From a virus (lineage: Duplodnaviria; Caudoviricetes), in IMG/VR virus record IMGVR_UViG_3300015615_000196, positions 256,001 to 320,000 of that record: a stretch of 64,000 bases of DNA; one strand, written 5' to 3'. The notes beneath the pieces are model-generated. The model saw nothing but the letters and a program-made list of their open reading frames with translations, did no database searches and was not told the DNA's origin. Shown in pieces: positions 3-48,730 of this stretch. Position numbers and translations under genes: made by a program. Positions within the stretch are counted from its first letter, which is position 1; each line of letters opens with the position of its first letter.

Positions 3-3000
3 GCAATTCCGGGTAAGGATGCGCTTGTAGAATATCAAAACAAAGCATATCCCGCAAAATCATACGTGGAAAGGGATGGTTTGGTTTACAAGTCGTTGAC
101 CGGAACATCAACCACATTCCTAAGTACACAATGGGAATTAATCGCTGACTTACGTGAAGTAAGAGTTGCAAATATCAAGGATCGTAATGCCTTGACTGGC
201 TATACAGCCACTACTGGTACAACAGGTATTCGTATTCCAATTCTGGATAATACCAATGTACTTGTGTTAAATGCTGCTGGCGATCCGCAAGTTGGGGTTA
301 ATAATTTTGCTCGTTACAATTATAATCAAACAACTACAAGCTGGCTTCTATTGCAAGTTGGCACTGGTGCAACAAATTCGAATGTAAATAACTATCAATT
401 ACTTACAAATAAACCTGCTGTTGTCAGTGGAGTCACTGTCACGGCTGGTAATGGTTTAACTGGTGGAGGAAGTGTGTTCGGTACAGCATCTGCGCCCTAT
501 GCTGCTGGTGGTACAATTAATGTTTCACATGCTGACACATCTTCGCAAGGAAATATCGTAGGTTCAGGATATGCATATATTCAAACCTTACGTTTCGATA
601 CTTTTGGCCACGTAACCGGAGCAACTTCAAGTACATGGGTTCATCCAACTGGATTAACACAAAATTTTTCAAACACAGGATACACGTACATTCAAAGTGT
701 TCAAGTTAACAACGGACACGTTACAAGTGTAAGTCCTTCAACATGGGTTCACCCGGATACCTCAACACAGGCCAATTCAGTAAACTCTGGAAATGTTTTC
801 ATTCAAAGCATTTATGTTGATGGTGCTGGTCACGTAACAAATATCACAACTGGTACGGCTGGTGGTGGAGGTGGTGGTGGATCACCACTTAAAGTTAATG
901 GTGATAGTGGTGGTTTGATTACCATGAATAGTGGTGGTACGTTAACCATTTCAGGTGGAACAAACATTGCAACTGTAAGAACAGGTAACGTAAACAATAC
1001 AGGCATAAGAATAAACCTTAATCCGGCAGGTACAACAAATCAAGTACAATACAATAGTGGTTCTGGCTTGGGTGCAAGTGCAAACTTTGTATTCAGTGCT
1101 GGCACAAGCACGTTGAGATCAAGTAACTACGTAGTAGGTTCAACGCCAACATCTGGTACTACATCAGATCAAATACTTACAAGAAATTCTGGAAGTGGTG
1201 CTGTACAAAGATTAAGTATCAATACAGTTTTAGCACAATTAGCGGTAAACAATGGTCTTACCAAGAGTTTTAACAATGTTAGATTAGGTGGAACACTCAC
1301 TGGTAACACATCAATTGCCGGAGCATTTGGTCTTAATCTTACGGCTGGTTATTTAACTGTAGGTGCACGATCAGGTAGTACTGGAACGAATTCATTAAGT
1401 ATTGGTCAAGGCAATTTAGTTAGTGGGCAATATAGTGCATCATTTGGTGCATCTAATAAAGCTACTGGTCAATATGCCATAAGTTCAGGGGCAAATTCAG
1501 AAGCGACTGGTGATCAGAGTTCAGCATTTGGTTGGGGAGCAATTGCATCCGGTATGGGCGCACATGCATCTGGCTTCGGTAATGGTGTTGGTAAAGGAGT
1601 GCTTGCACAAGGAAACTTCTCATTTAATCATTCATTTAATCACAACGTAAATCAAACTGCTGGTCATGGTGCACTTGCAGACGCATCAGCAATTCTTGGT
1701 GGTCGTGATCATAATATTGATGCAACAAATACAAATGCAGCAATTGTTGGTGGTGACACAATTAAATTACCTGCTGGTTATGGTAACTTTACTGCCGTAG
1801 GTAATCTCGCAATTTGGACAGCACCTGCAACAAATAACACGGACGATCTTCTTGTATATAATGCAACAACGAAGAAAATTGAGAAAACAACCAGAGCATC
1901 TATTGTGGGTGGTGGTACACCGCCAGCAGGATCGAATACACAGGTTCAATTTAATAATAGTGGTGCGTTTGGTGCATCTGCTAATCTAACGTTCACAACT
2001 GGCACAAATACTTTGTTGTCAACAAACATTAATGTTGGTACAACACTTACCTTAGCATCTAACCCTGCATCTGGTACAACAGGAGACCAAATACTTACAA
2101 GAAATTCTGGTACTGGTATCGTACAAAGATTATCATTAAGTGCAATTGCTGGACTTCCATTAAATGCAATACAATATAGAACTGTTACCGGATTCGGTGG
2201 TGACGCAAATTGGATTTTTGATCCAACAAATGATGCGATCACTTTAGGTACAAGAGCGGGTGGTACTGTGGGATTAAACAGTGCAACATTTGGTACAAGC
2301 AATCTTGCTTCTGGTGCAACATCTTTTGTTGTTGGTACAAGTTCAATTGCTGGCGCAAATGCGATTGCAATGGGTGTGTCGGTCACAGCAACGGGTCAAT
2401 ATTCGTCTGCATTTGGTCAACAAACTGTTGCAAGCGGACAATATTCATTTGCAGAAGGTGTTGGTAGTGTCGCTTCCGGTGGATTTGGTTCACATGCAGA
2501 AGGTACAAGAACAACTGCAAGTGGTAATGCTGCTCACGCAGGTGGTTATGGACAAAATGCAACATTAACACTTCTCGCATCTGGCTTTGCTGCATTCAAT
2601 CACTCACAGACAACGCCATCACAAACAACTGGTCATGGTGCATTAGCAAACGGATCAGCAATTCTTGGTGGACAAGATCATAACATTGCAGTTGGTAATA
2701 CTAATGCGGCAATTATTGGTGGCACAGCAATTAAGTTAACTGGCACAACATACATTGATCATACAGCAGTTGCAAATTTAGCAATCATGTCAACGCCTGT
2801 AACTGGTATTGCTGCGGATGATGTTCTTGTAAGAAGTTCGACAACAGGCAGAATCAGAACAGTAACTCAAGCATCATTAAGTGGTGGTGGAGGTGGTTCA
2901 CCGGGTGGTGCAAATACGCAAATCCAATATAACAATTCAGGCGCATTTGGGGGTTCGGCTGAATTAACATTTGTGCCGGGAGTTCTTAGAACACCTGTTG

Positions 3001-33632: not shown

Positions 33633-34011
33633 TATTGTTAAAGTTGTAATGGATGCATCTTATCCTTACAATGATTTTCTTGGATGGTGGCAATCAATGG
33701 ACACCTACGACAAAGAGGTCTGGACGTACATTTCAAAAGACTCTGGTCGTACCGAGCAAAATTCAATGTTGCTCACTAAGAAGGCAATGGAACTGTATTG
33801 CCTTGAAATGGGAATCGACTACATTCCCAACAGTGAGGAATACCTTGACAAAATGTTTAGACGATTAATCTCAATGATCGTCATTGCTTCGTTAATTGAT
33901 CGTGGCATGGTCTACATTGGATCAGGCAGATTATCATTCATTGAAGATGCAACTCCAATGTTGACGGAGAAAGGAAAGAACTACCAAAAGGAATCTAAAG
34001 CAGATAAGTGA
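33625..34011 (+). CDS. Hypothetical protein
   Basis: ORF. Confidence 0.6.
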   Translation: MHDIVKVVMDASYPYNDFLGWWQSMDTYDKEVWTYISKDSGRTEQNSMLLTKKAMELYCLEMGIDYIPNSEEYLDKMFRRLISMIVIASLIDRGMVYIGSGRLSFIEDATPMLTEKGKNYQKESKADK

Positions 34012-34523
34012 GAATTGTCTTTCTCGATATTGATGGTGTTTTAAATCACGAAGCATTCTACCGAAAACGGCAAGAGGAAGGGATACATATTTACCCAACG
34101 TATCCTTTGTCTGAATTCGATCCTGAATCTGTTTCTCGATTGAACTACATTCTTGAACAGACAGGTGCTAAAGTGGTAATGTCTTCCTCATGGAGACACG
34201 GGCGTACAATTCAAGAACTTCAAAACATACTTGAGAAAGTCGGCTTTAAAGGTGAGTTGATTGACAAGACTCCATCCTTCAAACACGATGATTGTGTGCG
34301 TGGTAATGAGATCGAAAAATGGATTGATGACCACAGAGAATTACTTGGAGCAGACAAGTTCAGATATTGCGAATACGTGATTCTGGACGATGATTGCGAC
34401 ATGCTTTATACGCAAAAGGACAATTTCATACACGTAGATCGGTATGTTGGTATTACCATGCAGACTGCAATTCGTGCAATTAATATTTTGAAAACTGTAA
34501 GAGAACCCTTAATTTTGAGTTGA
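34008..34523 (+). CDS. HAD phosphatase, Swiss-Army-Knife RNA-repair type (HAD_SAK_2)
   Basis: FLDIDGVLN, VMSSSWR, RGNEIEKW, YVILDDD. Confidence 0.88.
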   Translation: MRIVFLDIDGVLNHEAFYRKRQEEGIHIYPTYPLSEFDPESVSRLNYILEQTGAKVVMSSSWRHGRTIQELQNILEKVGFKGELIDKTPSFKHDDCVRGNEIEKWIDDHRELLGADKFRYCEYVILDDDCDMLYTQKDNFIHVDRYVGITMQTAIRAINILKTVREPLILS

Positions 34524-35919: not shown

Positions 35920-36156
35920 ATGAAGGACATAAAGGAATGCCTCAAATCAACCAGTCTTGACGAGATTAAAAGAGAGATTGATGAACGTAAGGATTTACGT
36001 GCGCAAATGGTAGGACAATTGTATCCTGCAATGTTGACTGATGAAATCAGTCAGTTAACATCGCACTATACTGCCGTTTATCGTTTCGTAAAACACAACA
36101 TGGATCACATCCGAAAACAAGAAGAAGAATGGAAACCTACCCAACCGCCAATGTAA
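35920..36156 (+). CDS. Hypothetical protein
   Basis: ORF. Confidence 0.55.
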   Translation: MKDIKECLKSTSLDEIKREIDERKDLRAQMVGQLYPAMLTDEISQLTSHYTAVYRFVKHNMDHIRKQEEEWKPTQPPM

Positions 36157-37235
36157 ATGCAGACTTGATTGCACCACAAATTGTGTCGGTAGAAAACCGT
36201 CCGTTGGATGCAACTATTGAAATTGTGCATGGTGTTGAGAAACATCCGAATGCAGACAAACTTGATCTTTGCATGATCTTGGGTTTCAAGTGTGTGACCA
36301 AACGTGATCAATTCAAAGACGGTGACAAGGTGATTTACGTTCGCCCGGATACGGTATTTCCGTTGGCTGATTGGGCAGCAGAGTATCGTAAGTATTCACC
36401 AAAGAGAATCAAAGCAATTCGTCTTCGTGGAGTATTCAGCGAAGGCGTAATCATTCCATTCGATGCAGTGCCAGAAGACGTGCGTAATCTCATTGTCAAC
36501 TTTGCAGTGGGAGATACCGTTGCCGAAATTCTTGGCATCACGCACTACCAAGAACCTGAACCACAGGATCAATCTGCAAAAGGTGGTCTGCCTCTTGGCA
36601 TTCCGAAAACCGATGAAGAACGTTTTGAAGGTATGAAGTATCTTCCGTTCGGAGAGGTCGTTGATCTTCAATTGAAGATTGATGGTCAGTCATGCTCGTA
36701 CTACTACAACTACGAAACCAAAGTCTTTGGTATTCTTGGTCGTAGTCTGGAATTGAAGTACAAGGTGGTTGACGAAAACGGAATCGAAAGCATTGCCAAC
36801 AACAAGTATGTCGAGAACATTCCGATCTACGACATCGAAAATAAATTACGTGACTTCTGTGAGAAGGAACAAATTTCACTTTGTATCCGAGGTGAATCTT
36901 ATGGTCAAGGTTTACAGGGACATGAAATCAATCCTCATGCGAAAGCAAACAAGGGTTGGGCGATGTTCTCCGTATTCTTGATCACCGAGCATGTGTACGC
37001 TGAAAAGGGTCACAAGTATTACTTTAAGAATGTGGCGCAAGCTACAGGGCTTCCTATTGCCCCAATGATCGAAGAAGATGTAGAGTTAACACCTGAATTG
37101 GTGAAACACTATTCCGAAGAAATTGAAAAGCTGAACTACAATGGCATTCAAGCGTTACCGTTTGAAGGTGTTGTGGTAAAGACAAAAGCCGGATCATTCA
37201 AGATCATCAATAAGTACTACGATGCAAACAAGTAA
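36129..37235 (+). CDS. ATP-dependent RNA ligase, DRB0094/Rnl5 type (N-terminal OB domain)
   Basis: HPNADKL OB domain, LRGVFSEG, KTDEER, KIDGQS adenylylation motif, RGE, EGVVVK, FKIIN. Confidence 0.9.
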   Translation: METYPTANVNADLIAPQIVSVENRPLDATIEIVHGVEKHPNADKLDLCMILGFKCVTKRDQFKDGDKVIYVRPDTVFPLADWAAEYRKYSPKRIKAIRLRGVFSEGVIIPFDAVPEDVRNLIVNFAVGDTVAEILGITHYQEPEPQDQSAKGGLPLGIPKTDEERFEGMKYLPFGEVVDLQLKIDGQSCSYYYNYETKVFGILGRSLELKYKVVDENGIESIANNKYVENIPIYDIENKLRDFCEKEQISLCIRGESYGQGLQGHEINPHAKANKGWAMFSVFLITEHVYAEKGHKYYFKNVAQATGLPIAPMIEEDVELTPELVKHYSEEIEKLNYNGIQALPFEGVVVKTKAGSFKIINKYYDANK

Positions 37236-38012
37236 ATGAAAGGTCAACTTACATTTCAGAACTACAAGTCTTACACGAAAGAAGATCAAAAGACTTGGGG
37301 TGCTCTTTTCGAACGTCAGGTGGATAACCTGAAAAAAGACAACAAGGTTGTCGAAGAGTTTTGGGAAGGTGTCAATAAGTTGAAAATCAAAAGAGGTGAA
37401 ATACCCAATTTTGAAAACGTCAACAAGATACTCAAGCCACTGAACAATTTTGAGATCATGGGTGTGACTGGTTTGCTGGATGATCAAATCTTCTTCCAGC
37501 TAATCAAGAATCGCAAGTTCCCGGTGACCACTTGGATTCGCAAACCTCACCAGATCGACTATATTGAAGAACCGGATATGTTTCATGACTTGCTCGGTCA
37601 CGTACCGTTCCTTGCTCATAAATCGTATACGGACTTACTGGTTGAACTTGCCGATGCTGCCTTACTTTCGTTCCAGAGAAACGACAAAGTGTTTCAGGAT
37701 GCGTTTGTGCGCTTTTACTGGTACAGTGTTGAGTTCGGTCTTCTCCTGAACAAAGAAGGAAAGCACCAGATTTACGGAGCAGGGATTCTTTCATCGTTCT
37801 CGGAGACAAACAAAGTGTTTGAAGCAGAGAGTGTGAAGAAGGATTTCAGCTACGACATTTTGAAGGAAGACTTCGATAAGCAGCACCTTCAAAATTTCTA
37901 CGCTGTGCTTTGTGGTCAGGACGGAGGCATTGGCTTTGCAAGTGGAATTGAGCGACTACGGGAATGGGTCGTTTATGTAAACGATCAACAACACGGGAGG
38001 CACAATCCATGA
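37236..38012 (+). CDS. phhA: Phenylalanine 4-monooxygenase (biopterin-dependent aromatic amino acid hydroxylase)
   Basis: YIEEPDMFHDLLGHVPFL (two Fe His), WYSVEFGL (Fe Glu), YGAGILSS. Confidence 0.9.
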   Translation: MKGQLTFQNYKSYTKEDQKTWGALFERQVDNLKKDNKVVEEFWEGVNKLKIKRGEIPNFENVNKILKPLNNFEIMGVTGLLDDQIFFQLIKNRKFPVTTWIRKPHQIDYIEEPDMFHDLLGHVPFLAHKSYTDLLVELADAALLSFQRNDKVFQDAFVRFYWYSVEFGLLLNKEGKHQIYGAGILSSFSETNKVFEAESVKKDFSYDILKEDFDKQHLQNFYAVLCGQDGGIGFASGIERLREWVVYVNDQQHGRHNP

Positions 38013-40411: not shown

Positions 40412-40611
40412 ATGTTTCAAAAGACGTAACAATTACCCTCACTCCGAAAGAAGCAGAGAAGATCATCCTTGATCATTTGAATTCTACTCATGCAGGATTC
40501 AATATGAAAACCGTTCACTTTGACATTAAAAGAGAATACGGTGAGTATGGCGATCACAGTGAGTATCACAGCTTAGGCGAAGTAAGATGTGAAGGAAAAC
40601 TTGTTGGGTAA
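40408..40611 (+). CDS. Hypothetical protein
   Basis: Coupled ORF. Confidence 0.5.
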   Translation: MNVSKDVTITLTPKEAEKIILDHLNSTHAGFNMKTVHFDIKREYGEYGDHSEYHSLGEVRCEGKLVG

Positions 40612-40698
40612 TCAACGTTTTCTCTTTTGAGAAATCGAATAGATGATACCACTGATGATTAGGATTGCATAGAATGCAATGAAGCAGTATACAAACAT
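40612..40698 (-). CDS. 28-aa TM micropeptide
   Basis: MFVYCFIAFYAILIISGIIYSISQKRKR; starts directly after upstream TAA. Confidence 0.4.
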   Translation of the reverse strand: MFVYCFIAFYAILIISGIIYSISQKRKR

Positions 40699-41115
40699 TT
40701 AATCGCCACCTCCCGAAGAGCATCCACTGCTTCCGCTATCGTGACTACTGCTGTCATGTGAATGACTATGAGAGTCATCACTTGAATGATGATGGTTGTC
40801 GTCATTCGAATCGTGATGATGGTTGTCGTCATTCGAATCGTGACGGTGATTGCTTCGATGACTGTCTTCTTCTGATGAATTATTCCACACCGAAATTGGA
40901 CTGATGGGACTCAAAGGGTTGAGAGGATTCAGGAAATCATCATCGTTTCTACGTGTGAGATTTTTAACATGTTCTTCATGTTCACGGATACGATCCATGC
41001 GTTTCTTACGAGCAGCTTGCCACTGTGCATGTTCTTTTTCCCATGCTTCGTGTTCTTTGCGTTTACGTTCCTCTTCTCTTTTTTTAGAGGACTTGAAGAT
41101 ACTGAATAATCCCAT
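40699..41115 (-). CDS. Protein with His/Asp/Ser-rich low-complexity tail
   Basis: Likely start MGLFSIFK just downstream of tRNA-Leu; HHHDSNDDN repeats; ends SSGCSSGGGD. Confidence 0.6.
   Translation of the reverse strand: MGLFSIFKSSKKREEERKRKEHEAWEKEHAQWQAARKKRMDRIREHEEHVKNLTRRNDDDFLNPLNPLSPISPISVWNNSSEEDSHRSNHRHDSNDDNHHHDSNDDNHHHSSDDSHSHSHDSSSHDSGSSGCSSGGGD
40790..40843. repeat. Perfect 27-bp tandem duplication
   Basis: tgatggttgtcgtcattcgaatcgtga x2. Confidence 0.85.
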
Positions 41116-41132
41116 ATTCGTTTTGTTTTTTG

Positions 41133-41218
41133 TAGCACTGACGGGAATCGAACCCATACGTCCATTACTGAACACCAGATTTTAAGTCTGGCTTGTCTAC
41201 CAGTTCCAACACAGTGCC
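41133..41218 (-). tRNA. tRNA-Leu(TAA)
   Basis: Acceptor GGCACTG/CAGTGCT, anticodon arm CCAGA-CTTAAAA-TCTGG, long variable arm, TTCGATT T-loop, A73; no encoded CCA. Confidence 0.92.
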
Positions 41219-41225
41219 GAAGACT

Positions 41226-41474
41226 TTAGTCTTTCTTCTTAACCGTGTTTGTTTGCGTTGCTTTTAAGAGCAAGCTGAACACCCACACAATCTTTACTGA
41301 TTGCCACCATGTTAAGGTTGCAGCCAATACACCGCTTTCAATTGCCTTCGGGAACATTGCAGTAATGGAATCCTCCCAAATAAGCCACAGGGCAGTACCG
41401 CCCAAAACTGACATAACACATACTAAAAATAGGGCCACCACAATGAACCCTACGCCTTCCATGAAATCACTCAT
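41226..41474 (-). CDS. Small membrane protein
   Basis: Two TM helices. Confidence 0.6.
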   Translation of the reverse strand: MSDFMEGVGFIVVALFLVCVMSVLGGTALWLIWEDSITAMFPKAIESGVLAATLTWWQSVKIVWVFSLLLKATQTNTVKKKD

Positions 41475-41490
41475 AATTGTAGTTGTTTAA

Positions 41491-41709
41491 CTACGTAATA
41501 ATAGCAATTCCTTTTTTAATTTCAAAATTCGAACAGTAGCCTTTCATCACGAATCGTGGTTGGCGTTTGCTGATGTGTCCGTAAGTCGGTACACCACATA
41601 CTACGTTATCAACAATGTGACAGGTCTTGTTGTAGTGTACCGAAATCTTGCAACGTCCTGCGCTTTGGGATGCAGGTTTATTGAAGTGAAAGAAGAATGC
41701 TTTTTTCAT
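41491..41709 (-). CDS. Hypothetical protein
   Basis: FFFHFNKPAS...QPRFVMKG; TAG stop. Confidence 0.6.
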   Translation of the reverse strand: MKKAFFFHFNKPASQSAGRCKISVHYNKTCHIVDNVVCGVPTYGHISKRQPRFVMKGYCSNFEIKKGIAIIT

Positions 41710-42209
41710 ACGAGTGCGAGATCGGCCTTGACCTTTTTCAATTGGTCTTCAAGGTCTTTCTTCTTTGCATTGAGAACTTTTTTCTGAATGGTCTTCTCAT
41801 TGAATTTCTCGGCATGGAGACGACCATTGAGAACTTGCTTTTCAATCTCGTTGAATGCTGAGATCGTAGTGTTCTCTACGTTGGTCTTCTTTTCAATTGC
41901 ATTGTAGTCGTAGAAGTCCCATTCCAATTTGATCGGAATCAAAACTGATCCACGATCAGTCTGATATGGCTTTCCACCGTTGAGCGTAAATGCGTTCAAC
42001 TTGAAGTATGCTTCTTCACCCTTTGCATTCAAACGCTTGAACCATTTCTGTTGCATGACGAATGAGTTCAACGAGTCGTTGACATACTTGATGATGAATT
42101 CAGGTGACTTTCTCAACGATGTGAGAATGACACGTCTTTCTTTATCCAATGCTCCGAGGCGTTGGCAAAGTTTTTCGTATTCTGAACTTTTTGTTGCGCG
42201 AGTTGCCAT
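41706..42209 (-). CDS. Hypothetical protein
   Basis: ORF after ECF-like promoter at 42230-42254. Confidence 0.6.
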   Translation of the reverse strand: MATRATKSSEYEKLCQRLGALDKERRVILTSLRKSPEFIIKYVNDSLNSFVMQQKWFKRLNAKGEEAYFKLNAFTLNGGKPYQTDRGSVLIPIKLEWDFYDYNAIEKKTNVENTTISAFNEIEKQVLNGRLHAEKFNEKTIQKKVLNAKKKDLEDQLKKVKADLALV

Positions 42210-42229
42210 ATTTTTATGCTTTGCTGTAT

Positions 42230-42254
42230 TGTACGTAAAATTACGAAAAAGGTT
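42230..42254 (-). promoter_or_regulatory. ECF-sigma-like promoter
   Basis: AACCTTTTTCGTAATTTTACGTACA. Confidence 0.7.
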
Positions 42255-42260
42255 GGAAGA

Positions 42261-42540
42261 AAGTAGCAGGAATGTGGCGGCTTATGAACAGTCGCATTGC
42301 TTTTCGTGGCATTTCGGACATCCCGAAGTAATGGGTTAATAGTCCTCATGTTCTCCACTGTGGTTATATCACCACATTCCCCCTTACGTTATCCTTGTCC
42401 CTGTTAAGACAGGTGAGCCATTGCTGGCAAGTTCCCTTATCGGTTTGCTACAGTCCTGTGGTGTGCAAGAGCACGTTTCAGGGCGTGGGATGAAAAATTC
42501 GCCCTACAGTGTCAGTGGATTGTCTACCAATCCTCTACCT
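42261..42540 (-). ncRNA. ~280-nt highly structured RNA of unknown class
   Basis: Closing AGGTAG/CTACTT; hairpins GGATTG/CAATCC, AGGGCG/CGCCCT, GTGC/GCAC, GCCA-GCAA-TGGC, CCTGT/ACAGG and TTCGG/CCGAA; long-range GGAATGTGG/CCACATTCC. Confidence 0.6.
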
Positions 42541-42550
42541 ATTTTTCAAG

Positions 42551-42621
42551 TGGATACTGGATGATTCGAACATCCGTTAACCCCCTCAATGGGGCCGTTC
42601 TAACCGCTAAACTAAGTACCC
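42551..42621 (-). tRNA. Atypical tRNA with 6-nt anticodon loop (ATTGAG; possibly degenerate Gln-TTG)
   Basis: GGGTACT/AGTATCC acceptor, GTTT/GAAC D-stem, GCCCC/GGGGT anticodon stem, GGATG-TTCGAAT-CATCC T-arm. Confidence 0.7.
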
Positions 42622-42626
42622 GTTTT

Positions 42627-42795
42627 CGGGAAGGTTCGGAGTTCCACACGAACCTCTCCATACCTAATTCTGAATGTCGTGTGCGCTTCACAGCTACTCC
42701 CCTTGGATTAATGGTTTTCGATGGCCAATGGCTCCCCGCACAACGAGTACAAAACTTCAAACGGTATGGCGCATTCATACTATGCTACCTTTCCC
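42627..42795 (-). ncRNA. tRNA-shaped RNA with ~98-nt insert replacing the anticodon loop
   Basis: GGGAAAGG/CCTTCCC acceptor, GCAT/ATGC D-stem, CCATACC/GGTATGG stem, degenerate T-arm TTCG(T)G-TGGAACT-CCGAA. Confidence 0.65.
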
Positions 42796-42797
42796 TG

Positions 42798-42865
42798 ACA
42801 CAACTTCACGCACTGCGTAACCAATGCATCATGGCCGATTTACGTCAACCACTTCGAAGTTATGT
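42798..42865 (-). ncRNA. 68-nt three-way-junction RNA with complementary loops
   Basis: P1 ACATAACTTCG/TGAAGTTGTGT; P2 GTGGTTGA/TCGGCCAT, loop CGTAAA; P3 TGCATTG/CAGTGCG, loop GTTACG. Confidence 0.7.
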
Positions 42866-42868
42866 TTG

Positions 42869-42980
42869 TGGGAAGGGATGGACTTGAACCACCAACCTCT
42901 CAGCTTTGCGATCTGTAAAGATGCATACCATTGCATTTGATTTCCGCATCACTGAGTTCTCTAACTTGAGATACCTTCCC
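42869..42980 (-). ncRNA. tRNA-shaped RNA with 48-nt anticodon-loop insert (intron-like)
   Basis: GGGAAGG/CCTTCCC acceptor, TCTC/GAGA D-stem, CTCAG/CTGAG anticodon stem, GGTGG-TTCAAGT-CCATC T-arm. Confidence 0.75.
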
Positions 42981-42983
42981 ATT

Positions 42984-43095
42984 TCAGGAGCGTCATGCGG
43001 TCATTGATTGTGTGGAGGCTTTAGCCTAATTTCGATGCATGAACACCTCACCACTAAAACATTTCTGCGTTTCAATCAACAACCCTTTCTCCTGA
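42984..43095 (-). ncRNA. ~112-nt structured RNA
   Basis: TCAGGAG/CTCCTGA closing stem, TTGTTGATTG/CAATCAATGA stem, AGGC-TAAA-GCCT hairpin. Confidence 0.55.
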
Positions 43096-43103
43096 CCTTT
43101 TAT

Positions 43104-43209
43104 ACTGCTAAACATCACCGATGTGTTCATTCCATAACAGATACTGTTGCTCGATCAAAGACTTGGTTTAGTGCCAAAATTGCTCGACAGTACTCGATGT
43201 CTGTACAGT
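43104..43209 (-). ncRNA. ~106-nt structured RNA
   Basis: ACTGT/GCAGT, GTACTGT/ACAGTAT, TTTGG-CACTAAA-CCAAG, ACATC-GGT-GATGT. Confidence 0.45.
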
Positions 43210-43220
43210 TGGATTTCTTG

Positions 43221-43292
43221 CGCGGATACCCGGATTCGAACCGAGGTCAAGGGATTTAGAGTCCCCTGTTCTGACCACTAAACTATATCCAC
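43221..43292 (-). tRNA. Amber suppressor tRNA (anticodon CTA)
   Basis: GTGGATA/TATCCGC acceptor, GTTT/GAAC D-stem, GGGGA-CTCTAAA-TCCCT anticodon arm, CTCGG-TTCGAAT-CCGGG T-arm, G73. Confidence 0.92.
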
Positions 43293-43303
43293 GTATGTTC
43301 CTT

Positions 43304-43329
43304 TATACGAAAAAAGGGGACGCAAGGTT
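43304..43329 (-). promoter_or_regulatory. ECF-sigma-like promoter of the RNA operon (17-nt spacer)
   Basis: AACCTTGCGTCCCCTTTTTTCGTATA, 11 nt upstream of the suppressor tRNA. Confidence 0.7.
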
Positions 43330-43335
43330 GTTACC

Positions 43336-43539
43336 TTACTCCCCTTTATTTTCAATTTTTTCTCCGATCTCCGTGATCATGAGCGTCATCAAAATGCCGA
43401 AGCTATACCACGATTGAAGTACAGTTTTGAAGAATACTTCGTTATCAGGTTCAGTCTTCTCGACAATTGAAATTCCTTTCAATGCACCAGCAGTTGCAAA
43501 TACACCTGCGAGATAAATACCAAATAATGTCCACCACAT
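43336..43539 (-). CDS. Small membrane protein
   Basis: Two hydrophobic helices. Confidence 0.55.
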   Translation of the reverse strand: MWWTLFGIYLAGVFATAGALKGISIVEKTEPDNEVFFKTVLQSWYSFGILMTLMITEIGEKIENKGE

Positions 43540-43563
43540 AGTAATGCAAATAAAGGGAAAATT

Positions 43564-43719
43564 TTAGTCAATAGCAACCTTTTGACGGCAAGCGTTTTTG
43601 TTGGCTTTCTTCTTCTTGTCGGTTGTTACCATCGGTTTAGGCATACGGTTCGTCTCACGGCTAACTCGTTTAGCCATTTTAAGACGATCCATGTTCGTTA
43701 TTTTGTATGTCTTTGCCAT
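43564..43719 (-). CDS. Small basic protein (51 aa, not in ORF track)
   Basis: MAKTYKITNMDRLKMAKRVSRE...DKKKKANKNACR; GTATTTAT motif just upstream. Confidence 0.55.
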   Translation of the reverse strand: MAKTYKITNMDRLKMAKRVSRETNRMPKPMVTTDKKKKANKNACRQKVAID

Positions 43720-43734
43720 TGTGGTAATAAATAC

Positions 43735-44061
43735 TTACTCGGTGAGTGCTTCGTAGCGTTGACGAATGACTGCCGAATCACGTTTGATCAGTAGTTCATT
43801 CTGTACGTATAACCGAAGATAAATTGAGTCGATGATATTTTGTTTCATGCCCTTGCACTTGTACAGGTCAAGAGTTACTGAACTTTTTTCAATGCGAGAG
43901 ATACGAGCCAAATTCATGATTTGGTAGTCCTTGAGAATATCTTTGAGAACCATTTCGTGATTGGCTGCTTTTAAATCACGAACGCTGAGAGCAAGTTGCG
44001 TAGTGCTGGTGGCTAAGGCCACAACGACTAAAAAAATGACGATTTTGAACGAATTTTTCAT
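43735..44061 (-). CDS. Secreted/anchored hypothetical protein
   Basis: Signal-like N-terminus; ECF-like promoter at 44069-44093. Confidence 0.55.
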   Translation of the reverse strand: MKNSFKIVIFLVVVALATSTTQLALSVRDLKAANHEMVLKDILKDYQIMNLARISRIEKSSVTLDLYKCKGMKQNIIDSIYLRLYVQNELLIKRDSAVIRQRYEALTE

Positions 44062-44382: not shown

Positions 44383-45059
44383 AAGAGAAGCACACTGAGA
44401 AGTCGATGCTCAAAGCAGTCCACAATTATTTTTCAGGTGATTATAAGTACTGCTTGAAGAATTCATTTGTGTTCAGACATGATTGGGAGTCGGATTACTT
44501 TTGTGTGAATAGGGAAGGATACGCATACGAGATTGAAGTGAAGATCAGCAAGAAAGACTTCAAACTCGATTTTAAAAAGGAGAAGCATAAACTGTTTGAG
44601 GATTACTCGGCAGTACAGAAGGGAAGGCTCACACCGAACAGATTTTACTATGCTGTTCCAAAAGACCTACTTACTGAGGAAGACATTCCGAAATATGCTG
44701 GTCTGATATATGTGGATGGGTCACACATGAACATAGTGAAACGTGCACCATTCATACACAAGACCAAGCACGATTATCGGAAAATACTTTGTGATAAGTT
44801 CTACTACCAGTTGCTTGCTAAGAGAAAGGAACTGAACATCATAGAGTATGACAAAGAGTCGTTGGAAAAGAAAATTCAGAACTTTTGGATTAATTCTTTT
44901 ACCTTTGAGAAACAATCTTGGGAGATTCTGTCGATTGACTTCAAGAACAAGAAGGTAACAGGAGAATCGATGCCATACTACGATAAGCACAATCACTACA
45001 AATTGGTGAAAGGTGAGGAAGTGAGAGAATTTGATTTTAAGGACGTAAAATTTAAATGA
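44373..45059 (+). CDS. PD-(D/E)XK nuclease, MmcB-like
   Basis: ESD...YEIEVKISKKDF..D..K, PNRFYYAVP, PKYAGLI. Confidence 0.75.
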   Translation: MSVKEKHTEKSMLKAVHNYFSGDYKYCLKNSFVFRHDWESDYFCVNREGYAYEIEVKISKKDFKLDFKKEKHKLFEDYSAVQKGRLTPNRFYYAVPKDLLTEEDIPKYAGLIYVDGSHMNIVKRAPFIHKTKHDYRKILCDKFYYQLLAKRKELNIIEYDKESLEKKIQNFWINSFTFEKQSWEILSIDFKNKKVTGESMPYYDKHNHYKLVKGEEVREFDFKDVKFK

Positions 45060-46384
45060 TGGAAAAAGTAACATTCAAATACGAAGGAGAGGACATTACA
45101 ATTGAGTTGACAGACGAGTTCGCAAGAGCGCACGAATTGCTTGAAACCACTGATGAAAGTTTTTTCATAACTGGAAAGGCAGGAACTGGTAAATCAACTT
45201 TGCTCAAGTACTTTCGTTCTCAAACCAAAAAGAATGTTGCTGTTGTTGCTTTCACTGGTCTCGCTGCAATTAACGTAGACGGACAAACAATCCATTCGTT
45301 CTTTGGATTCCCAATTGGTTTCATTCATCCTAATGCAATCAAGTTCAATGATGAACTTCAATATTTGCTTAGGACATTAGATACCATTGTAGTTGATGAA
45401 GTGTCAATGCTTCGTGCAGACTTGATGGATGCAATGGATAAGTCTCTTCGTATTCATCGTGGTGTTACCAAACCTTTTGGTGGTGCACAAATGATTTTCA
45501 TAGGTGACTTGTACCAATTGCCACCTATTGTAGAGAGAGACTTGACTGACGTATATGGCAAGTACTACAAGACCCCGTATTTTTTCAGTGCAGACGTTTT
45601 CTCGCACATGAGACTCCCGTATATTAATCTTGAAAAAATACATCGTCAGAACGATCCTGAGTTCATCGGTATTCTGAATGCGATTCGTGAAAGAAGGGAT
45701 TTGACTCCGGCACTTAATCGTCTCAATCAAAATGTCTCATACGACTTCAATGATTTGAAGGCCGGAGAAACAGTGGTGCTTTCAACCACGAACGAAAAGG
45801 TTAGAGAAATCAACAATTTCTTTCTTGACAATCTAAACGTTCAAGCGTATTCCTTTGCAGCAAACATCGGTGGTGACTTCGATCCCAAGTCGTATCCCAC
45901 AGAGGAACGTTTGTATTTGAAGGAAGGTGCAAAGGTCATGTTCGTGAAAAACGATCCTGACAAATATTTTGTAAATGGTGACATTGGTATTGTAACAAAA
46001 CTCACTCCATTTTCAATTGAAGTGAAAGTGAAGGGAAGTACGTTGGTCGTGAAGAAACAGAAGTGGGAAAAAATTAAATACAAATACGTTCCTTCTGATC
46101 AAGAAGGTGAACGTGGATCGGTTCAGAAAACCATCGTTGGTTCATTCGAACAGTATCCTCTACGTCTTGCATGGGCGATCACCGTACACAAAAGTCAGGG
46201 TCAGACATACAACAAAGTTTTCATTGACTTGCATACTGGTAGCTTCACTTCTGGTCAAACGTATGTGGCACTTTCACGCTGCAAAACCCTTGACGGCATC
46301 AAATTGCAACGGCCAATTCGGGAGAGCGATGTCATTCTGGATCAGCGCATTACGGAGTTCGCGAGAACCTTCCAGAGTATGTAA
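45056..46384 (+). CDS. PIF1/RecD-like SF1B helicase
   Basis: TGKAGTGKS, GQTIHSFF, VDEVSM, GDLYQLPP, AITVHKSQGQT, YVALSR. Confidence 0.93.
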   Translation: MMEKVTFKYEGEDITIELTDEFARAHELLETTDESFFITGKAGTGKSTLLKYFRSQTKKNVAVVAFTGLAAINVDGQTIHSFFGFPIGFIHPNAIKFNDELQYLLRTLDTIVVDEVSMLRADLMDAMDKSLRIHRGVTKPFGGAQMIFIGDLYQLPPIVERDLTDVYGKYYKTPYFFSADVFSHMRLPYINLEKIHRQNDPEFIGILNAIRERRDLTPALNRLNQNVSYDFNDLKAGETVVLSTTNEKVREINNFFLDNLNVQAYSFAANIGGDFDPKSYPTEERLYLKEGAKVMFVKNDPDKYFVNGDIGIVTKLTPFSIEVKVKGSTLVVKKQKWEKIKYKYVPSDQEGERGSVQKTIVGSFEQYPLRLAWAITVHKSQGQTYNKVFIDLHTGSFTSGQTYVALSRCKTLDGIKLQRPIRESDVILDQRITEFARTFQSM

Positions 46385-46953: not shown

Positions 46954-47143
46954 TGGACGGTTTATACGAGATATTGCAATCATACTGGTAATCGGTATTG
47001 GTTATCAATATCCGTTCAATAGCTGGCAGTATAATGTGAGTGTGTTCGTAAGCGGTTGTGTTTTCGTATACACTCTTTATCGAATTTTAATGTGGCTCAA
47101 TGCTAAAGGAAATAATTTCAAAGACGAAACTAAAGGACACTGA
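46943..47143 (+). CDS. Small membrane protein
   Basis: Two TM helices. Confidence 0.5.
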   Translation: MKSDGRFIRDIAIILVIGIGYQYPFNSWQYNVSVFVSGCVFVYTLYRILMWLNAKGNNFKDETKGH

Positions 47144-47732
47144 TCTAATTGCGGTCTACCCATACGGTTCAAGAGTATACGGAACTGCAAGAAAGAATTC
47201 GGACTATGATTTTATTGTCGTTACTCCAAAGAAAACCAACGAGCAATATTCAGACAAGTTGATCAACATCAACTTCTACACCCCGGAAGAGCATCAGAAT
47301 CGTTTGAACGAGCATGAAATTTCTGCTCTGGAATGTTACTTCTTACCACAAGAACAAGTTTTGTTCGATTGCTTTCATCCATTGAATAGAACACCACGAG
47401 TAAAGCCATTCACCTTCAAACTTGATTTGAATACACTTCGTCATTCGTTATCGGCAAAGTCATCGAACAGTTGGGTCAAGGCGAAAAAGAAACTTACTGT
47501 CGAGAAAGACTACGACATTGATCTTGGACGAAAGAGTCTTTTCCATTCATTCCGAATCATCGAATACGGAAAACAAATTGCCGTACATGGAACGATTGTA
47601 AACTATTGTTCCTGCAATGATCTCTTCAATGAAATTATGAACTGTTACACTTGGGATCAGATGTTTGATGGTTTCAAGGAACGTTACAATAAGTTGTGCA
47701 CTGAATTTAGAATCTTAGCCCCGAAAGAATGA
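47100..47732 (+). CDS. Pol-beta superfamily nucleotidyltransferase
   Basis: YGSRVYGT...SDYDF signature. Confidence 0.85.
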   Translation: MLKEIISKTKLKDTDLIAVYPYGSRVYGTARKNSDYDFIVVTPKKTNEQYSDKLININFYTPEEHQNRLNEHEISALECYFLPQEQVLFDCFHPLNRTPRVKPFTFKLDLNTLRHSLSAKSSNSWVKAKKKLTVEKDYDIDLGRKSLFHSFRIIEYGKQIAVHGTIVNYCSCNDLFNEIMNCYTWDQMFDGFKERYNKLCTEFRILAPKE

Positions 47733-48730
47733 CATCAATTTTAGTAACTGGTGGAGCCGGATTTATCGGTTCAAATTTCATACCGTTCATGCTTAACAAG
47801 TATCCGTCTGAATACAGCATCGTTAATTTGGATGCGTTGACGTATGCGGGTAATCTTGAAAACTTAAAGGAGGTTGAAAAACATCCGCATTACAATTTCG
47901 TTCATGGCGACATACGTGATCGTGCAATGGTGAAAGATATTTTCAGACACTACAGATGTCGTGCAGTGATCCATTTTGCTGCCGAGTCACACGTTGATAA
48001 TTCAATCACAGGGCCGGAGGCTTTCATCACTACAAACGTATTGGGTACGTTTACACTACTCGATGTTGCAAAAGAAATGTGGAAGGATGCGAGAGGATAC
48101 AATCCAAGATTTTTACACATATCAACAGATGAAGTGTATGGTAGCTTGGGTGAGACTGGACTTTTTACCGAGAGAACACCCTACGCACCGAATAGTCCAT
48201 ATTCTGCATCGAAGGCTTCCAGCGATATGATTGTTCGTAGCTATCATCATACCTACGGGCTGGATGTGGTGACGACAAATTGCTCGAACAACTACGGCCC
48301 AAAGCAGCACAAGGAAAAACTAATTCCTACAATCATTCGATCAGCATTGGCAGGAAAAGAAATACCCATCTATGGTGATGGTAAAAACGTAAGAGACTGG
48401 TTGTATGTTGGTGATCATGTAAGAGGAATTAACACTGCCTTCCATCTTGGAAAAGCAGGTGAGACATATAACATTGGTGGGAAGAACGAGAAAACGAACA
48501 ACATGATTGCCAAGCAAATTTGTGATGTGCTTGACCAATACTATCCAAGACCAGACCGTAAGTCCTATTCAGAACAAATCACATACGTGGCAGATCGTGC
48601 AGGACATGACAGACGATACGCAATAGATGCCACCAAGATCACTTCAAAATTGGGATGGGCTGCTGATGTAGATTTCGAAGACGGAATTAAGAAAACCGTC
48701 CAGTGGTACGTCAAACAGCTTATAGGGTAA
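47729..48730 (+). CDS. rfbB: dTDP-glucose 4,6-dehydratase
   Basis: GGAGFIG, AAESHVD, STDEVYG, YSASK, NNYGP, RDWLYV, GHDRRYA. Confidence 0.95.
   Translation: MTSILVTGGAGFIGSNFIPFMLNKYPSEYSIVNLDALTYAGNLENLKEVEKHPHYNFVHGDIRDRAMVKDIFRHYRCRAVIHFAAESHVDNSITGPEAFITTNVLGTFTLLDVAKEMWKDARGYNPRFLHISTDEVYGSLGETGLFTERTPYAPNSPYSASKASSDMIVRSYHHTYGLDVVTTNCSNNYGPKQHKEKLIPTIIRSALAGKEIPIYGDGKNVRDWLYVGDHVRGINTAFHLGKAGETYNIGGKNEKTNNMIAKQICDVLDQYYPRPDRKSYSEQITYVADRAGHDRRYAIDATKITSKLGWAADVDFEDGIKKTVQWYVKQLIG

What the first reader, a model, noticed from the sequence alone, without database searches (positions are those of the whole stretch)
42798..42865. 68-nt three-way junction whose two loops are complementary (kissing loop)
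Seen: 11-bp P1, 8-bp P2 with loop CGTAAA and 7-bp P3 with loop GTTACG; CGTAA can pair with TTACG (5 bp). The module exactly fills the gap between two tRNA shells. Established: purine riboswitches and the SRP Alu domain share this topology, but the junction here (AA/GA/none) lacks purine-riboswitch or hammerhead core nucleotides. Inference: a new compact RNA fold, possibly an Alu-like ribosome ligand, an aptamer or a nuclease-resistant decoy.
Basis: partly seen in the sequence, partly recalled or inferred. Interest (0 to 1): 0.75.

Follow-up and report, generated by a model that had tools for sequence, protein, structure and literature searches.

The report
Orphan three-armed RNA between tRNA mimics
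A 363-kb uncultured phage carries a very stable 68-base, three-armed RNA fold wedged between two tRNA look-alike genes; the fold is real and matches no catalogued RNA family, but I found no relatives, so its job and the proposed loop-to-loop "kiss" remain untested.

Summary
Bases 42865..42798 fold into P1 (10 bp), P2 (8 bp, loop CGUAAA) and P3 (8 bp, loop GUUACG): 26 pairs with no mismatch, 6 of them G-U. MFE is -27.8 kcal/mol, z -4.25; the plus strand gives z -0.6. The fold survives in every flank context tested. It is far more structured than the 12 other tRNA spacers of 44-160 nt in this genome. It is the only such junction in the 362.6-kb genome with 5-nt complementary loops (chance about 0.004).

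Rfam 15 gives no match. No homologue was found in any searchable collection. The one relative that keeps the cassette (a 371-kb phage) has a true tRNA-Tyr joined directly to the downstream tRNA mimic, with no module, so the module is lineage-specific.

Most likely it is a small RNA cut out of a tRNA-punctuated transcript by RNase Z-type and RNase P cleavage. Junction strand lengths (0/3/1 nt) and the known head-to-head geometry of kissing complexes argue against a full 5-bp kiss within one molecule. Pairing between molecules, as in phi29 pRNA, fits better but is untested.

The parts
42798..42865 (-). The 68-nt three-way-junction module (whole)
   Evidence: RNAfold MFE -27.8 kcal/mol, z -4.25. 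Intact in the MFE in all flank contexts tested. No Rfam match.
42856..42865 (-). P1 5' strand (ACAUAACUUC)
   Evidence: Pairs with 42798-42807; 10 bp including one G-U.
42853..42855 (-). J1/2 (GAA)
   Evidence: Unpaired in the MFE and centroid structures.
42831..42852 (-). P2 hairpin: 8-bp stem (three G-U pairs) with hexaloop L2 CGUAAA at 42839-42844
   Evidence: Mean pair probability 0.95-0.96 in all contexts.
42830..42830 (-). J2/3 (G)
42808..42829 (-). P3 hairpin: 8-bp stem (two G-U pairs) with hexaloop L3 GUUACG at 42816-42821; its 3' strand runs into P1 with no linker
   Evidence: L3 UUACG is complementary to L2 CGUAA; duplex -3.0 kcal/mol.
42798..42807 (-). P1 3' strand (GAAGUUGUGU)
42866..42868 (-). 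CAA linker, the normal type of 3' trailer of this phage's tRNA genes
   Evidence: None of the 61 tRNA genes has CCA directly after the called 3' end, and most trailers begin with C or CA.
42796..42797 (-). CA linker before the tRNA-like gene D
   Evidence: Sequence.
42869..42980 (-). Upstream neighbour B: a tRNA-Tyr-derived tRNA body with a 47-nt insert in place of the anticodon loop. It sets the module's predicted 5' processing site.
   Evidence: Rfam tRNA 46.3 bits, insert shown in the alignment. A true tRNA-Tyr(GUA) lies at this position in the relative G002.
42622..42795 (-). Downstream neighbour D: a tRNA-Tyr-like acceptor and D-arm shell with a large insert. It sets the module's predicted 3' processing site (RNase P).
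   Evidence: Acceptor GGGAAAGG/CCUUCCC and its fold. A D-like counterpart lies in G002.

Best explanation
The module is a small, very stable non-coding RNA of about 68-73 nt. It lies in a roughly 1-kb minus-strand cassette of tRNAs and tRNA mimics in a 362.6-kb jumbo phage. It is made as part of the cassette transcript. It is then freed by the enzymes that trim tRNAs: an RNase Z-type cut after the discriminator base of B (42869) and an RNase P cut before G42795 of D. The product is closed by a 10-bp terminal helix with only 3-nt and 2-nt overhangs, so it should resist exonucleases. P3 probably stacks on P1 (0-nt linker) and P2 projects sideways, giving a rigid T or Y shape that displays two hexaloops. 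It is not a riboswitch or a ribozyme. Shown here: the fold, its strand, its boundaries, its uniqueness in the genome, and its absence from Rfam and from one relative's cassette. Inferred: transcription, processing, stacking, and any loop pairing.
For: Fold and strand: (26 of 26 pairs, 6 G-U, z -4.25 against -0.62 on the other strand, pair probability 0.89 or more in every context). Setting: all neighbours are minus-strand tRNA or tRNA-like genes, and no protein family or relative matches the overlapping ORFs. Boundaries: 3 nt after B and 2 nt before D. None of the phage's 61 tRNA genes has CCA directly after the called 3' end and most trailers start with C or CA, so B's CAA trailer is typical and endonucleolytic 3' trimming is the expected route. 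Adjacent tRNA genes elsewhere in the genome lie only 4-10 nt apart. Not a generic spacer: the 12 other tRNA spacers of 44-160 nt have z +0.5 to -2.8 and -0.11 to -0.29 kcal/mol per nt, against z -4.9 and -0.39 here. Unique motif: it is the only three-way junction in the genome with complementary loops, and none appeared in 6 shuffles. Geometry: a 0-nt linker marks the coaxial pair, and family C (third helix leaning onto the stack, with remote stem-stem contacts) needs J31 longer than J23 (PMC3575829; PMC4536322). Here J31 is 1 and J23 is 3. By the same rules phi29 pRNA falls in family A/B; its ~75-nt domain is a three-way junction whose two loops pair over 4-5 bp between molecules (PMC4201828). 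Kissing complexes are head-to-head stacks (PMC2602780).
Against: There is no expression data; no sequencing run could be listed. No homologue was found, so there is no covariation and no proof of selection. The 371-kb relative G002 keeps the cassette but joins tRNA-Tyr directly to the D-like gene, so the module is dispensable for the cassette. The loop complementarity was noticed after the fact, is only 5 bp with 3 A-U pairs, and gives -3.0 kcal/mol as a free duplex. The junction-family rule is a heuristic with known failures (PMC3258123). Processing by RNase P and RNase Z is assumed from the tRNA-like shape of B and D and was not tested. The 3' acceptor strand of B and the 5' acceptor strand of D can pair with each other and extend P1, so the three units may not fold or be cut independently.
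Confidence: 0.45

Rival explanations
1. One reading: the two loops contact each other within one molecule, giving a compact 'tuning-fork' fold with P2 and P3 side by side. This fold would act as a protein or ribosome ligand, an aptamer or a decoy.
For: P2 and P3 are equal in size (8 bp plus a 6-nt loop each), which side-by-side arms need. The loops are complementary over 5 nt, with chance P about 0.004. Purine riboswitches use only two inter-loop Watson-Crick pairs (my recollection), so a partial contact of 2-3 bp is conceivable.
Against: J2/3 (1 nt) is shorter than J1/2 (3 nt), the opposite of family C junctions, in which the third helix leans on the stack. The arms have no bulge or kink that could turn the loops toward each other. 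Kissing helices of 5-6 bp stack head-to-head. The 4-nt junction has no room for a ligand pocket (inference). There is no Rfam match to any riboswitch, SRP or ribozyme at E up to 10.
Confidence: 0.17
2. A structured spacer with no role of its own: a lineage-specific insertion between two paralogous tRNA-Tyr-derived genes. At most it aids folding or processing of its neighbours, and the loop complementarity is coincidence.
For: The module is absent at the same junction in G002, where tRNA-Tyr...ACCA is followed at once by the D-like gene. No paralogue exists in the genome and no homologue was found anywhere. B and D share acceptor sequences that can mispair.
Against: The 12 other tRNA spacers of 44-160 nt in this phage are weakly structured. 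Twenty-six uninterrupted pairs, 6 of them G-U, are hard to get without selection at the RNA level. The flanking acceptor strands would extend P1 rather than be kept apart by it.
Confidence: 0.2
3. The module is the core of one composite RNA of about 360 nt (B + module + D) that is not cut apart: two tRNA look-alikes held on a three-way-junction hub.
For: The linkers are only 3 and 2 nt. The outer strands (B 5' with D 3') and the inner strands (B 3' with D 5') are mutually complementary, and RNAfold of the 359-nt unit prefers this by about 5 kcal/mol over the three separate folds. I read that sequence but did not test the claim.
Against: B is a near-perfect tRNA body (46 bits), so RNase P and 3' trimming should act on it. 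RNAfold ignores tRNA tertiary stabilisation. The covariance model of the module finds no second copy in the genome. In G002 the B position holds a genuine tRNA-Tyr, which must be released.
Confidence: 0.1
4. Not a functional RNA at all: a chance fold or a DNA-level element (inverted repeats, protein binding site) in a non-coding stretch.
For: It is a single sequence with no conservation evidence. A weaker three-way junction (P1 of 8 or more, P2 and P3 of 7 or more) turns up 0-1 times per shuffled genome.
Against: Six G-U pairs make the fold strand-specific, which a DNA palindrome would not be. The strand matches the tRNA cassette. Together the exact fit between two tRNA-like genes, stems of 10/8/8 bp and complementary loops are far below chance.
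Confidence: 0.08

Closest known systems
Small stable RNAs encoded inside phage tRNA gene clusters (T4 species 1 and 2 / RNA C and D; T5 tRNA-like stable RNAs), and functional tRNA-spacer RNAs such as E. coli 3'ETS-leuZ (my recollection; not looked up here)
   Same: Encoded on the tRNA strand inside a tRNA cluster and bounded by tRNA(-like) processing sites within a few nucleotides. Non-coding, with function unknown or regulatory.
   Different: No sequence or fold relation is known. This one is a 68-nt three-way junction flanked by non-decoding tRNA mimics rather than true tRNAs. Expression and processing are not shown.
phi29-family prohead RNA (pRNA, Rfam RF00044), minimal ~75-nt multimerisation domain
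   Same: Phage-encoded, about 70 nt. A terminal helix leads to a three-way junction with two arms whose loops are complementary over 4-5 nt. By the Lescoute-Westhof rules the junction is family A/B and not C. In pRNA the loops pair between molecules (PMC4201828).
   Different: No Rfam hit at E up to 10. There is no U-rich junction, no CE bulge and no long A-helix. The host virus is a 363-kb jumbo phage, not a ~20-kb phi29-like podovirus. The element sits in a tRNA cassette. Self-association is untested.
Purine riboswitch aptamer (RF00167)
   Same: P1-P2-P3 three-way junction of about 70 nt, with equal P2 and P3 arms and complementary loop bases.
   Different: The junction is 4 nt instead of about 18 conserved nt (figure from my recollection), so there is no ligand pocket. 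The J2/3 versus J1/2 length order is reversed. The loops are 6 nt, not 7. It is not in a 5' UTR. No CM match.
SRP Alu 5' domain
   Same: A small three-way junction whose two loops form tertiary base pairs.
   Different: No UGUNR U-turn, no conserved GGN loops, no SRP S domain or SRP context, and no CM match. The Alu features are from my recollection.

Membership tests
Purine riboswitch (RF00167) | Match to the family covariance model | tested here: not met
   No hit at the gathering threshold or at E up to 10 over 40500-44000.
Purine riboswitch (RF00167) | Long conserved junction strands that form the ligand pocket | tested here: not met
   The junction is GAA / G / none, 4 nt in all.
Purine riboswitch (RF00167) | Location in the 5' leader of a regulated gene | tested here: not met
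   It lies between two tRNA-like genes, and no ORF follows on the minus strand before D, E and F.
phi29 pRNA (RF00044) | Match to the family covariance model | tested here: not met
   No hit at E up to 10.
phi29 pRNA (RF00044) | Three-way junction with two mutually complementary loops (4-5 nt) | tested here: met
   L2 CGUAA pairs with L3 UUACG. Feature as described in PMC4201828.
phi29 pRNA (RF00044) | [quoted passage not shown] | not testable with these tools
   Needs native gels, ultracentrifugation and prohead binding assays.
Hammerhead ribozyme | Core CUGANGA, GAAA and a UH cleavage site at the junction | tested here: not met
   The junction strands are GAA, G and none. No CM hit.
SRP Alu domain | Match to SRP covariance models; U-turn and conserved loops | tested here: not met
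   No SRP hit at E up to 10.
tRNA (RF00005) | Cloverleaf match | tested here: not met
   The tRNA hits cover B, E, the amber tRNA and tRNA-Leu, but not 42798-42865.
Y RNA / YrlA with Ro60 | Ro60 (TROVE) gene in the genome; YrlA model match | tested here: not met
   No TROVE match in the whole genome. YrlA hits are all below the cut-off and lie on ordinary tRNA arrays.
Phage tRNA-cluster small stable RNAs (a kind, not a homology family) | Non-coding, same strand as the tRNAs, bounded by tRNA(-like) genes | tested here: met
Phage tRNA-cluster small stable RNAs (a kind, not a homology family) | Accumulates as a discrete processed RNA | not testable with these tools
   No sequencing run was listed.
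Kissing-loop leader RNAs of phage homing-endonuclease genes (earlier notes of this scan) | Sits before an endonuclease ORF, with one loop mirroring its ribosome-binding site | tested here: not met
   No ORF follows the module, and the loops CGUAAA and GUUACG are not Shine-Dalgarno-like.

The most novel reading that the evidence does not exclude
The module is a self-assembling RNA. That would make it the first such RNA outside the phi29 family, here in a jumbo phage and released from a tRNA-mimic transcript.
Probability: 0.12. Interest if true: 0.7.

Novelty: new member of a known kind. Interest (0 to 1): 0.36.

Why it matters
If the RNA is made and released, it adds a distinct, minimal fold to the poorly understood set of non-tRNA RNAs that large phages hide in their tRNA clusters. 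Here it sits between two tRNA-Tyr-derived mimics, near an amber suppressor tRNA and RNA-repair genes. That setting suggests interplay with host tRNA-targeting defences or tRNA enzymes. If the loops pair between molecules, it would be only the second natural self-assembling RNA scaffold after pRNA. As it stands it is a single-genome orphan, so its weight is modest.

Tried and rejected
**Searches for homologues (all negative)**
- blastn of the cassette against GenBank phages found nothing.
- tblastn of the neighbouring PIF1 helicase against phages gave 43% identity at best.
- The search for related loci with the 167-aa neighbour and with the helicase found no relatives in viral contigs.
- P0015 in genome contigs gave only hits of 43% or less.
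- A PYFFSADVF codon pattern in genome contigs gave helicases of 49% or less.
- The exact 22-mer of B's 3' end hit only an unrelated tRNA-Tyr.
- A loop-preserving descriptor of the module gave 14 chance hits in viral contigs, none with stems.
- Covariance model R1 found only itself in the genome. It found nothing in G001-G005.
- In the 80 helicase loci, the L143 hit of 18.6 bits has many non-canonical pairs and no tRNA context, so I rejected it.
- R1 found nothing in the loci caught with the F motif or the D motif.
- Using the spurious 108-aa plus-strand ORF as a proxy for the DNA of relatives gave no relative. The only hits are two very long database proteins that match the query in many short stretches. 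Their best stretches lie outside the module, and I take them for translated tRNA arrays without having checked.

The contigs behind helicases P0001-P0021 (68-93% identical) could therefore not be fetched.
- Sequencing runs: none was listed and no RNA holder was listed.

**Readings considered and dropped**
- Y RNA/Ro60.
- Retron or any protein-coding reading.
- Hammerhead or another ribozyme, riboswitch, SRP.
- Homing-endonuclease leader: no ORF follows.
- Transcription terminator: no U tract follows.
- L3 is also complementary to the CGUAA inside the conserved F-RNA motif GGAUAACGUAAGGGG. That is 5 nt in a 1-kb cassette, which is chance level.

Full report
**What the window is.** The window is bases 256001-320000 of a complete 362,603-bp virus record with direct terminal repeats, a jumbo phage. 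ARAGORN finds 61 tRNA genes in it. Fifty-eight lie elsewhere: 57 in arrays at 53-103 kb and one at 191.7 kb. Three lie in a separate small cluster that contains the finding. Around the finding everything runs on the minus strand, in this order:
- an amber-suppressor tRNA (43292-43221);
- about 240 nt of structured non-coding sequence;
- a tRNA body with a 47-nt insert in place of the anticodon loop ('B', 42980-42869; Rfam tRNA 46.3 bits);
- the 68-nt module;
- a second tRNA-like shell with a large insert ('D', 42795-42622);
- a tRNA with a 6-nt anticodon loop ('E', 42621-42551; 50.8 bits);
- a further structured stretch ('F', to about 42360).

ORFs that overlap this stretch have no family match and no relatives.

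**Checking the observation.** Read on the minus strand, 42865..42798 folds exactly as described.
- P1 is ACAUAACUUC/GAAGUUGUGU.
- J1/2 is GAA.
- P2 is GUGGUUGA/UCGGCCAU with loop CGUAAA.
- J2/3 is G.
- P3 is AUGCAUUG/CAGUGCGU with loop GUUACG, and it joins P1 with no linker.
- MFE is -27.8 kcal/mol. The MFE structure holds 43% of the ensemble, z is -4.25, and no shuffle of 200 folds as well.

Six of the 26 pairs are G-U, so the plus strand does not fold (z -0.62). The structure therefore belongs to an RNA of the same sense as the tRNAs, not to a DNA palindrome. With flanks of 0 to 300 nt the three helices keep mean pair probabilities of 0.89-0.99, and the module is intact in every MFE.

**Is it more than chance?**
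- In a scan of all 68-nt windows of the 64-kb window on both strands (mean -10.9, sd 4.1 kcal/mol), only about six other loci are as stable, and all are plain long hairpins.
- The 12 other inter-tRNA spacers of 44-160 nt in this genome are weakly structured: z +0.5 to -2.8, and -0.11 to -0.29 kcal/mol per nt. This spacer has z -4.9 and -0.39.
- A descriptor search for small three-way junctions with uninterrupted stems finds 43 loci in the genome. Only this one has loops complementary over 5 or more Watson-Crick pairs. Six block-shuffled genomes gave 20-42 junctions and none with such loops.
- Two random hexaloops reach 5 complementary bases with P = 0.0043.

What is not shown is that the loops actually pair.

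**Known families.** Rfam 15 gives nothing on the module, either at gathering thresholds or at E up to 10 with permissive filters. That excludes a recognisable riboswitch, hammerhead or other ribozyme, SRP, pRNA, tRNA or Y RNA. The genome has no Ro60/TROVE gene, and YrlA matches are sub-threshold hits on ordinary tRNA arrays.

**Relatives.** The neighbouring PIF1-type helicase (45056-46384) has relatives at 68-93% identity in metagenome protein sets (P0001-P0021), so sister phages exist. I could not reach their DNA.
- The viral, genome and phage collections hold none of them.
- No sequencing run was listed.

A wider helicase profile brought in a 371,504-bp phage record (G002, 53% helicase identity). 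G002 has a homologue of the amber tRNA and, downstream on the same strand, the same cassette logic:
- a true tRNA-Tyr(GUA) ending ...UCUUCCCACCA;
- followed at once by a D-like shell (AGGAAAGAUAGCAAAGCGGCUAAAUGCGC...);
- then an insert-bearing tRNA-like gene;
- then an F-like RNA that shares the motif GGAUAACGUAAGGGG.

Alignment shows that B and D in my window, and the tRNA-Tyr and D-like genes of G002, all share tRNA-Tyr-type acceptor stems. B is thus a tRNA-Tyr derivative sitting where G002 has the real tRNA-Tyr. At the B|D junction G002 has a spacer of 0-1 nt and no module. The module is therefore an insertion in my phage's lineage or a loss in G002's, and it is not part of the conserved core of the cassette.

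The F motif led to three more viral contigs (G003-G005). A covariance model of the module (R1) finds nothing in G001-G005, in any fetched locus, or elsewhere in its own genome. A descriptor that keeps the loops, junction and spacing but frees the stems gave only chance hits.

**How it is probably made.**
- None of the phage's 61 tRNA genes has CCA directly after the called 3' end. Most trailers begin with C or CA, so B's CAA trailer is typical.
- Neighbouring tRNA genes elsewhere in the genome are often only 4-10 nt apart.
- By established tRNA biology (inference), such arrays are cut by RNase P at each 5' end and by an RNase Z-type endonuclease after each discriminator.
- Applied here, the cuts fall after A42869 and before G42795. 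They release CAA-module-CA, 73 nt, closed by a 10-bp helix with overhangs too short for the usual 3' exonucleases.

One complication: B's 3' acceptor strand and D's 5' acceptor strand are complementary and can extend P1 by 7 pairs. RNAfold of the whole 359-nt B-module-D unit prefers such a chimeric arrangement by about 5 kcal/mol over the three separate folds. That is the basis of the 'one composite RNA' rival. I rate it lower because B is a near-perfect tRNA body and RNAfold ignores tRNA tertiary energy.

**Kiss within one molecule, or between molecules?** The 0-nt linker predicts that P3 stacks on P1. In the Lescoute-Westhof scheme, the third helix leans onto the stack and makes remote stem-stem contacts (family C) when the strand returning from the third helix (J31) is longer than the strand leading into it (J23) (PMC3575829; PMC4536322). 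I recall purine riboswitches and hammerheads as members of that family. Here the order is reversed: J31 is the single G and J23 is GAA. The module therefore falls in family A or B. That is where the same rules place phi29 pRNA (PMC4201828).

Solved kissing complexes are stem / loop-loop helix / stem stacks, bent by only about 28-48 degrees or collinear (PMC2602780). With two uninterrupted 8-bp arms and a 5-bp kiss, the arm bases would lie some 50-60 Å apart. A 1-nt linker cannot span that distance (my inference). A full kiss within one molecule is therefore unlikely. A partial side-on contact of 2-3 pairs remains possible.

The closest functional analogue is the ~75-nt multimerisation domain of pRNA. 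It is a phage three-way junction whose two loops are complementary over 4-5 nt and pair between molecules to build rings (PMC4201828). The module works like that on paper. It is not a member of that family: there is no model match, the junction differs, and the virus and genomic setting differ.

**Verdict.** This is a real, strand-specific, unusually stable and so far unique RNA fold, most likely a small RNA released from a tRNA-mimic transcript. Its function is unknown and it is not conserved in the one comparable relative. The purine-riboswitch/Alu-type kiss within one molecule is the weakest part. Earlier notes of this scan on the same cassette (B, D, E, F and the cassette as a whole) agree with what I re-derived. 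I score interest as moderate to low, because the element is a single-genome orphan without expression or covariation evidence.

Noticed in passing
window 42551-42621 (-); also L222 6864-6936 and 6253-6326, L223 5066-5138 and 4455-4528: tRNA genes with sound bodies that ARAGORN reports with 2-nt 'anticodons' (tg, ga). The copy in this window has a 6-nt anticodon loop. Such genes recur in this phage and in other large viral contigs found through the F motif, so they are probably a selected class rather than decay products. The loops of the L222 and L223 copies were not inspected.
   Followed up: partly
window 42869-42980 and 42622-42795 (-); L221 3091-3173 and 2940-3086 (-): Both tRNA mimics flanking the module have tRNA-Tyr-type acceptor stems. 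In the 371-kb relative G002, the position of B is held by a genuine tRNA-Tyr(GUA) with encoded CCA, directly abutting the D-like gene.
   Followed up: partly
window about 42385-42400 (-); L221, L222, L223, L224: The motif GGAUAACGUAAGGGG, preceded by GGGAAC 20-50 nt upstream, is shared by the F RNA of this phage and four other viral contigs, two of them (L222, L223) apparently the same or a very similar phage. In this window's F RNA it is predicted single-stranded. It contains the same CGUAA as loop L2 of the module.
   Followed up: partly
whole genome (G000), 61 tRNA genes: None of the 61 tRNA genes has CCA directly after the called 3' end, and most trailers begin with C or CA. This implies dependence on endonucleolytic 3' trimming plus CCA addition.
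   Followed up: partly
window 34008-34523, 36129-37235, 47100-47732 (+): RNA-repair-type genes flank the cassette: HAD_SAK_2 phosphatase (E 3e-28), an RNA ligase with a PHA02142 OB domain, and an NTP_transf_2/Pol-beta nucleotidyltransferase.
   Followed up: partly
window 37236-38012 (+) and 47729-48730 (+): The phage encodes a biopterin-dependent aromatic amino acid hydroxylase homologue (E 5e-33) and a GDP-mannose 4,6-dehydratase (E 2e-95). Both are unusual auxiliary metabolic genes.
   Followed up: no
L265 about 680-1240 (+) = G000 334,980-335,540: A stretch of about 560 nt without a convincing ORF, ending in a terminator-like hairpin and containing tRNA T-arm-like pieces. It has no Rfam match, and the genome-wide R1 search found no copy of the module there.
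   Followed up: partly
P0121 (1942 aa), P0122 (1222 aa): Two very long database 'proteins' match the spurious ORF over tRNA E and D in many short stretches. They look like translated tRNA arrays, which would make them gene-calling artefacts in the protein library; I did not check them.
   Followed up: no
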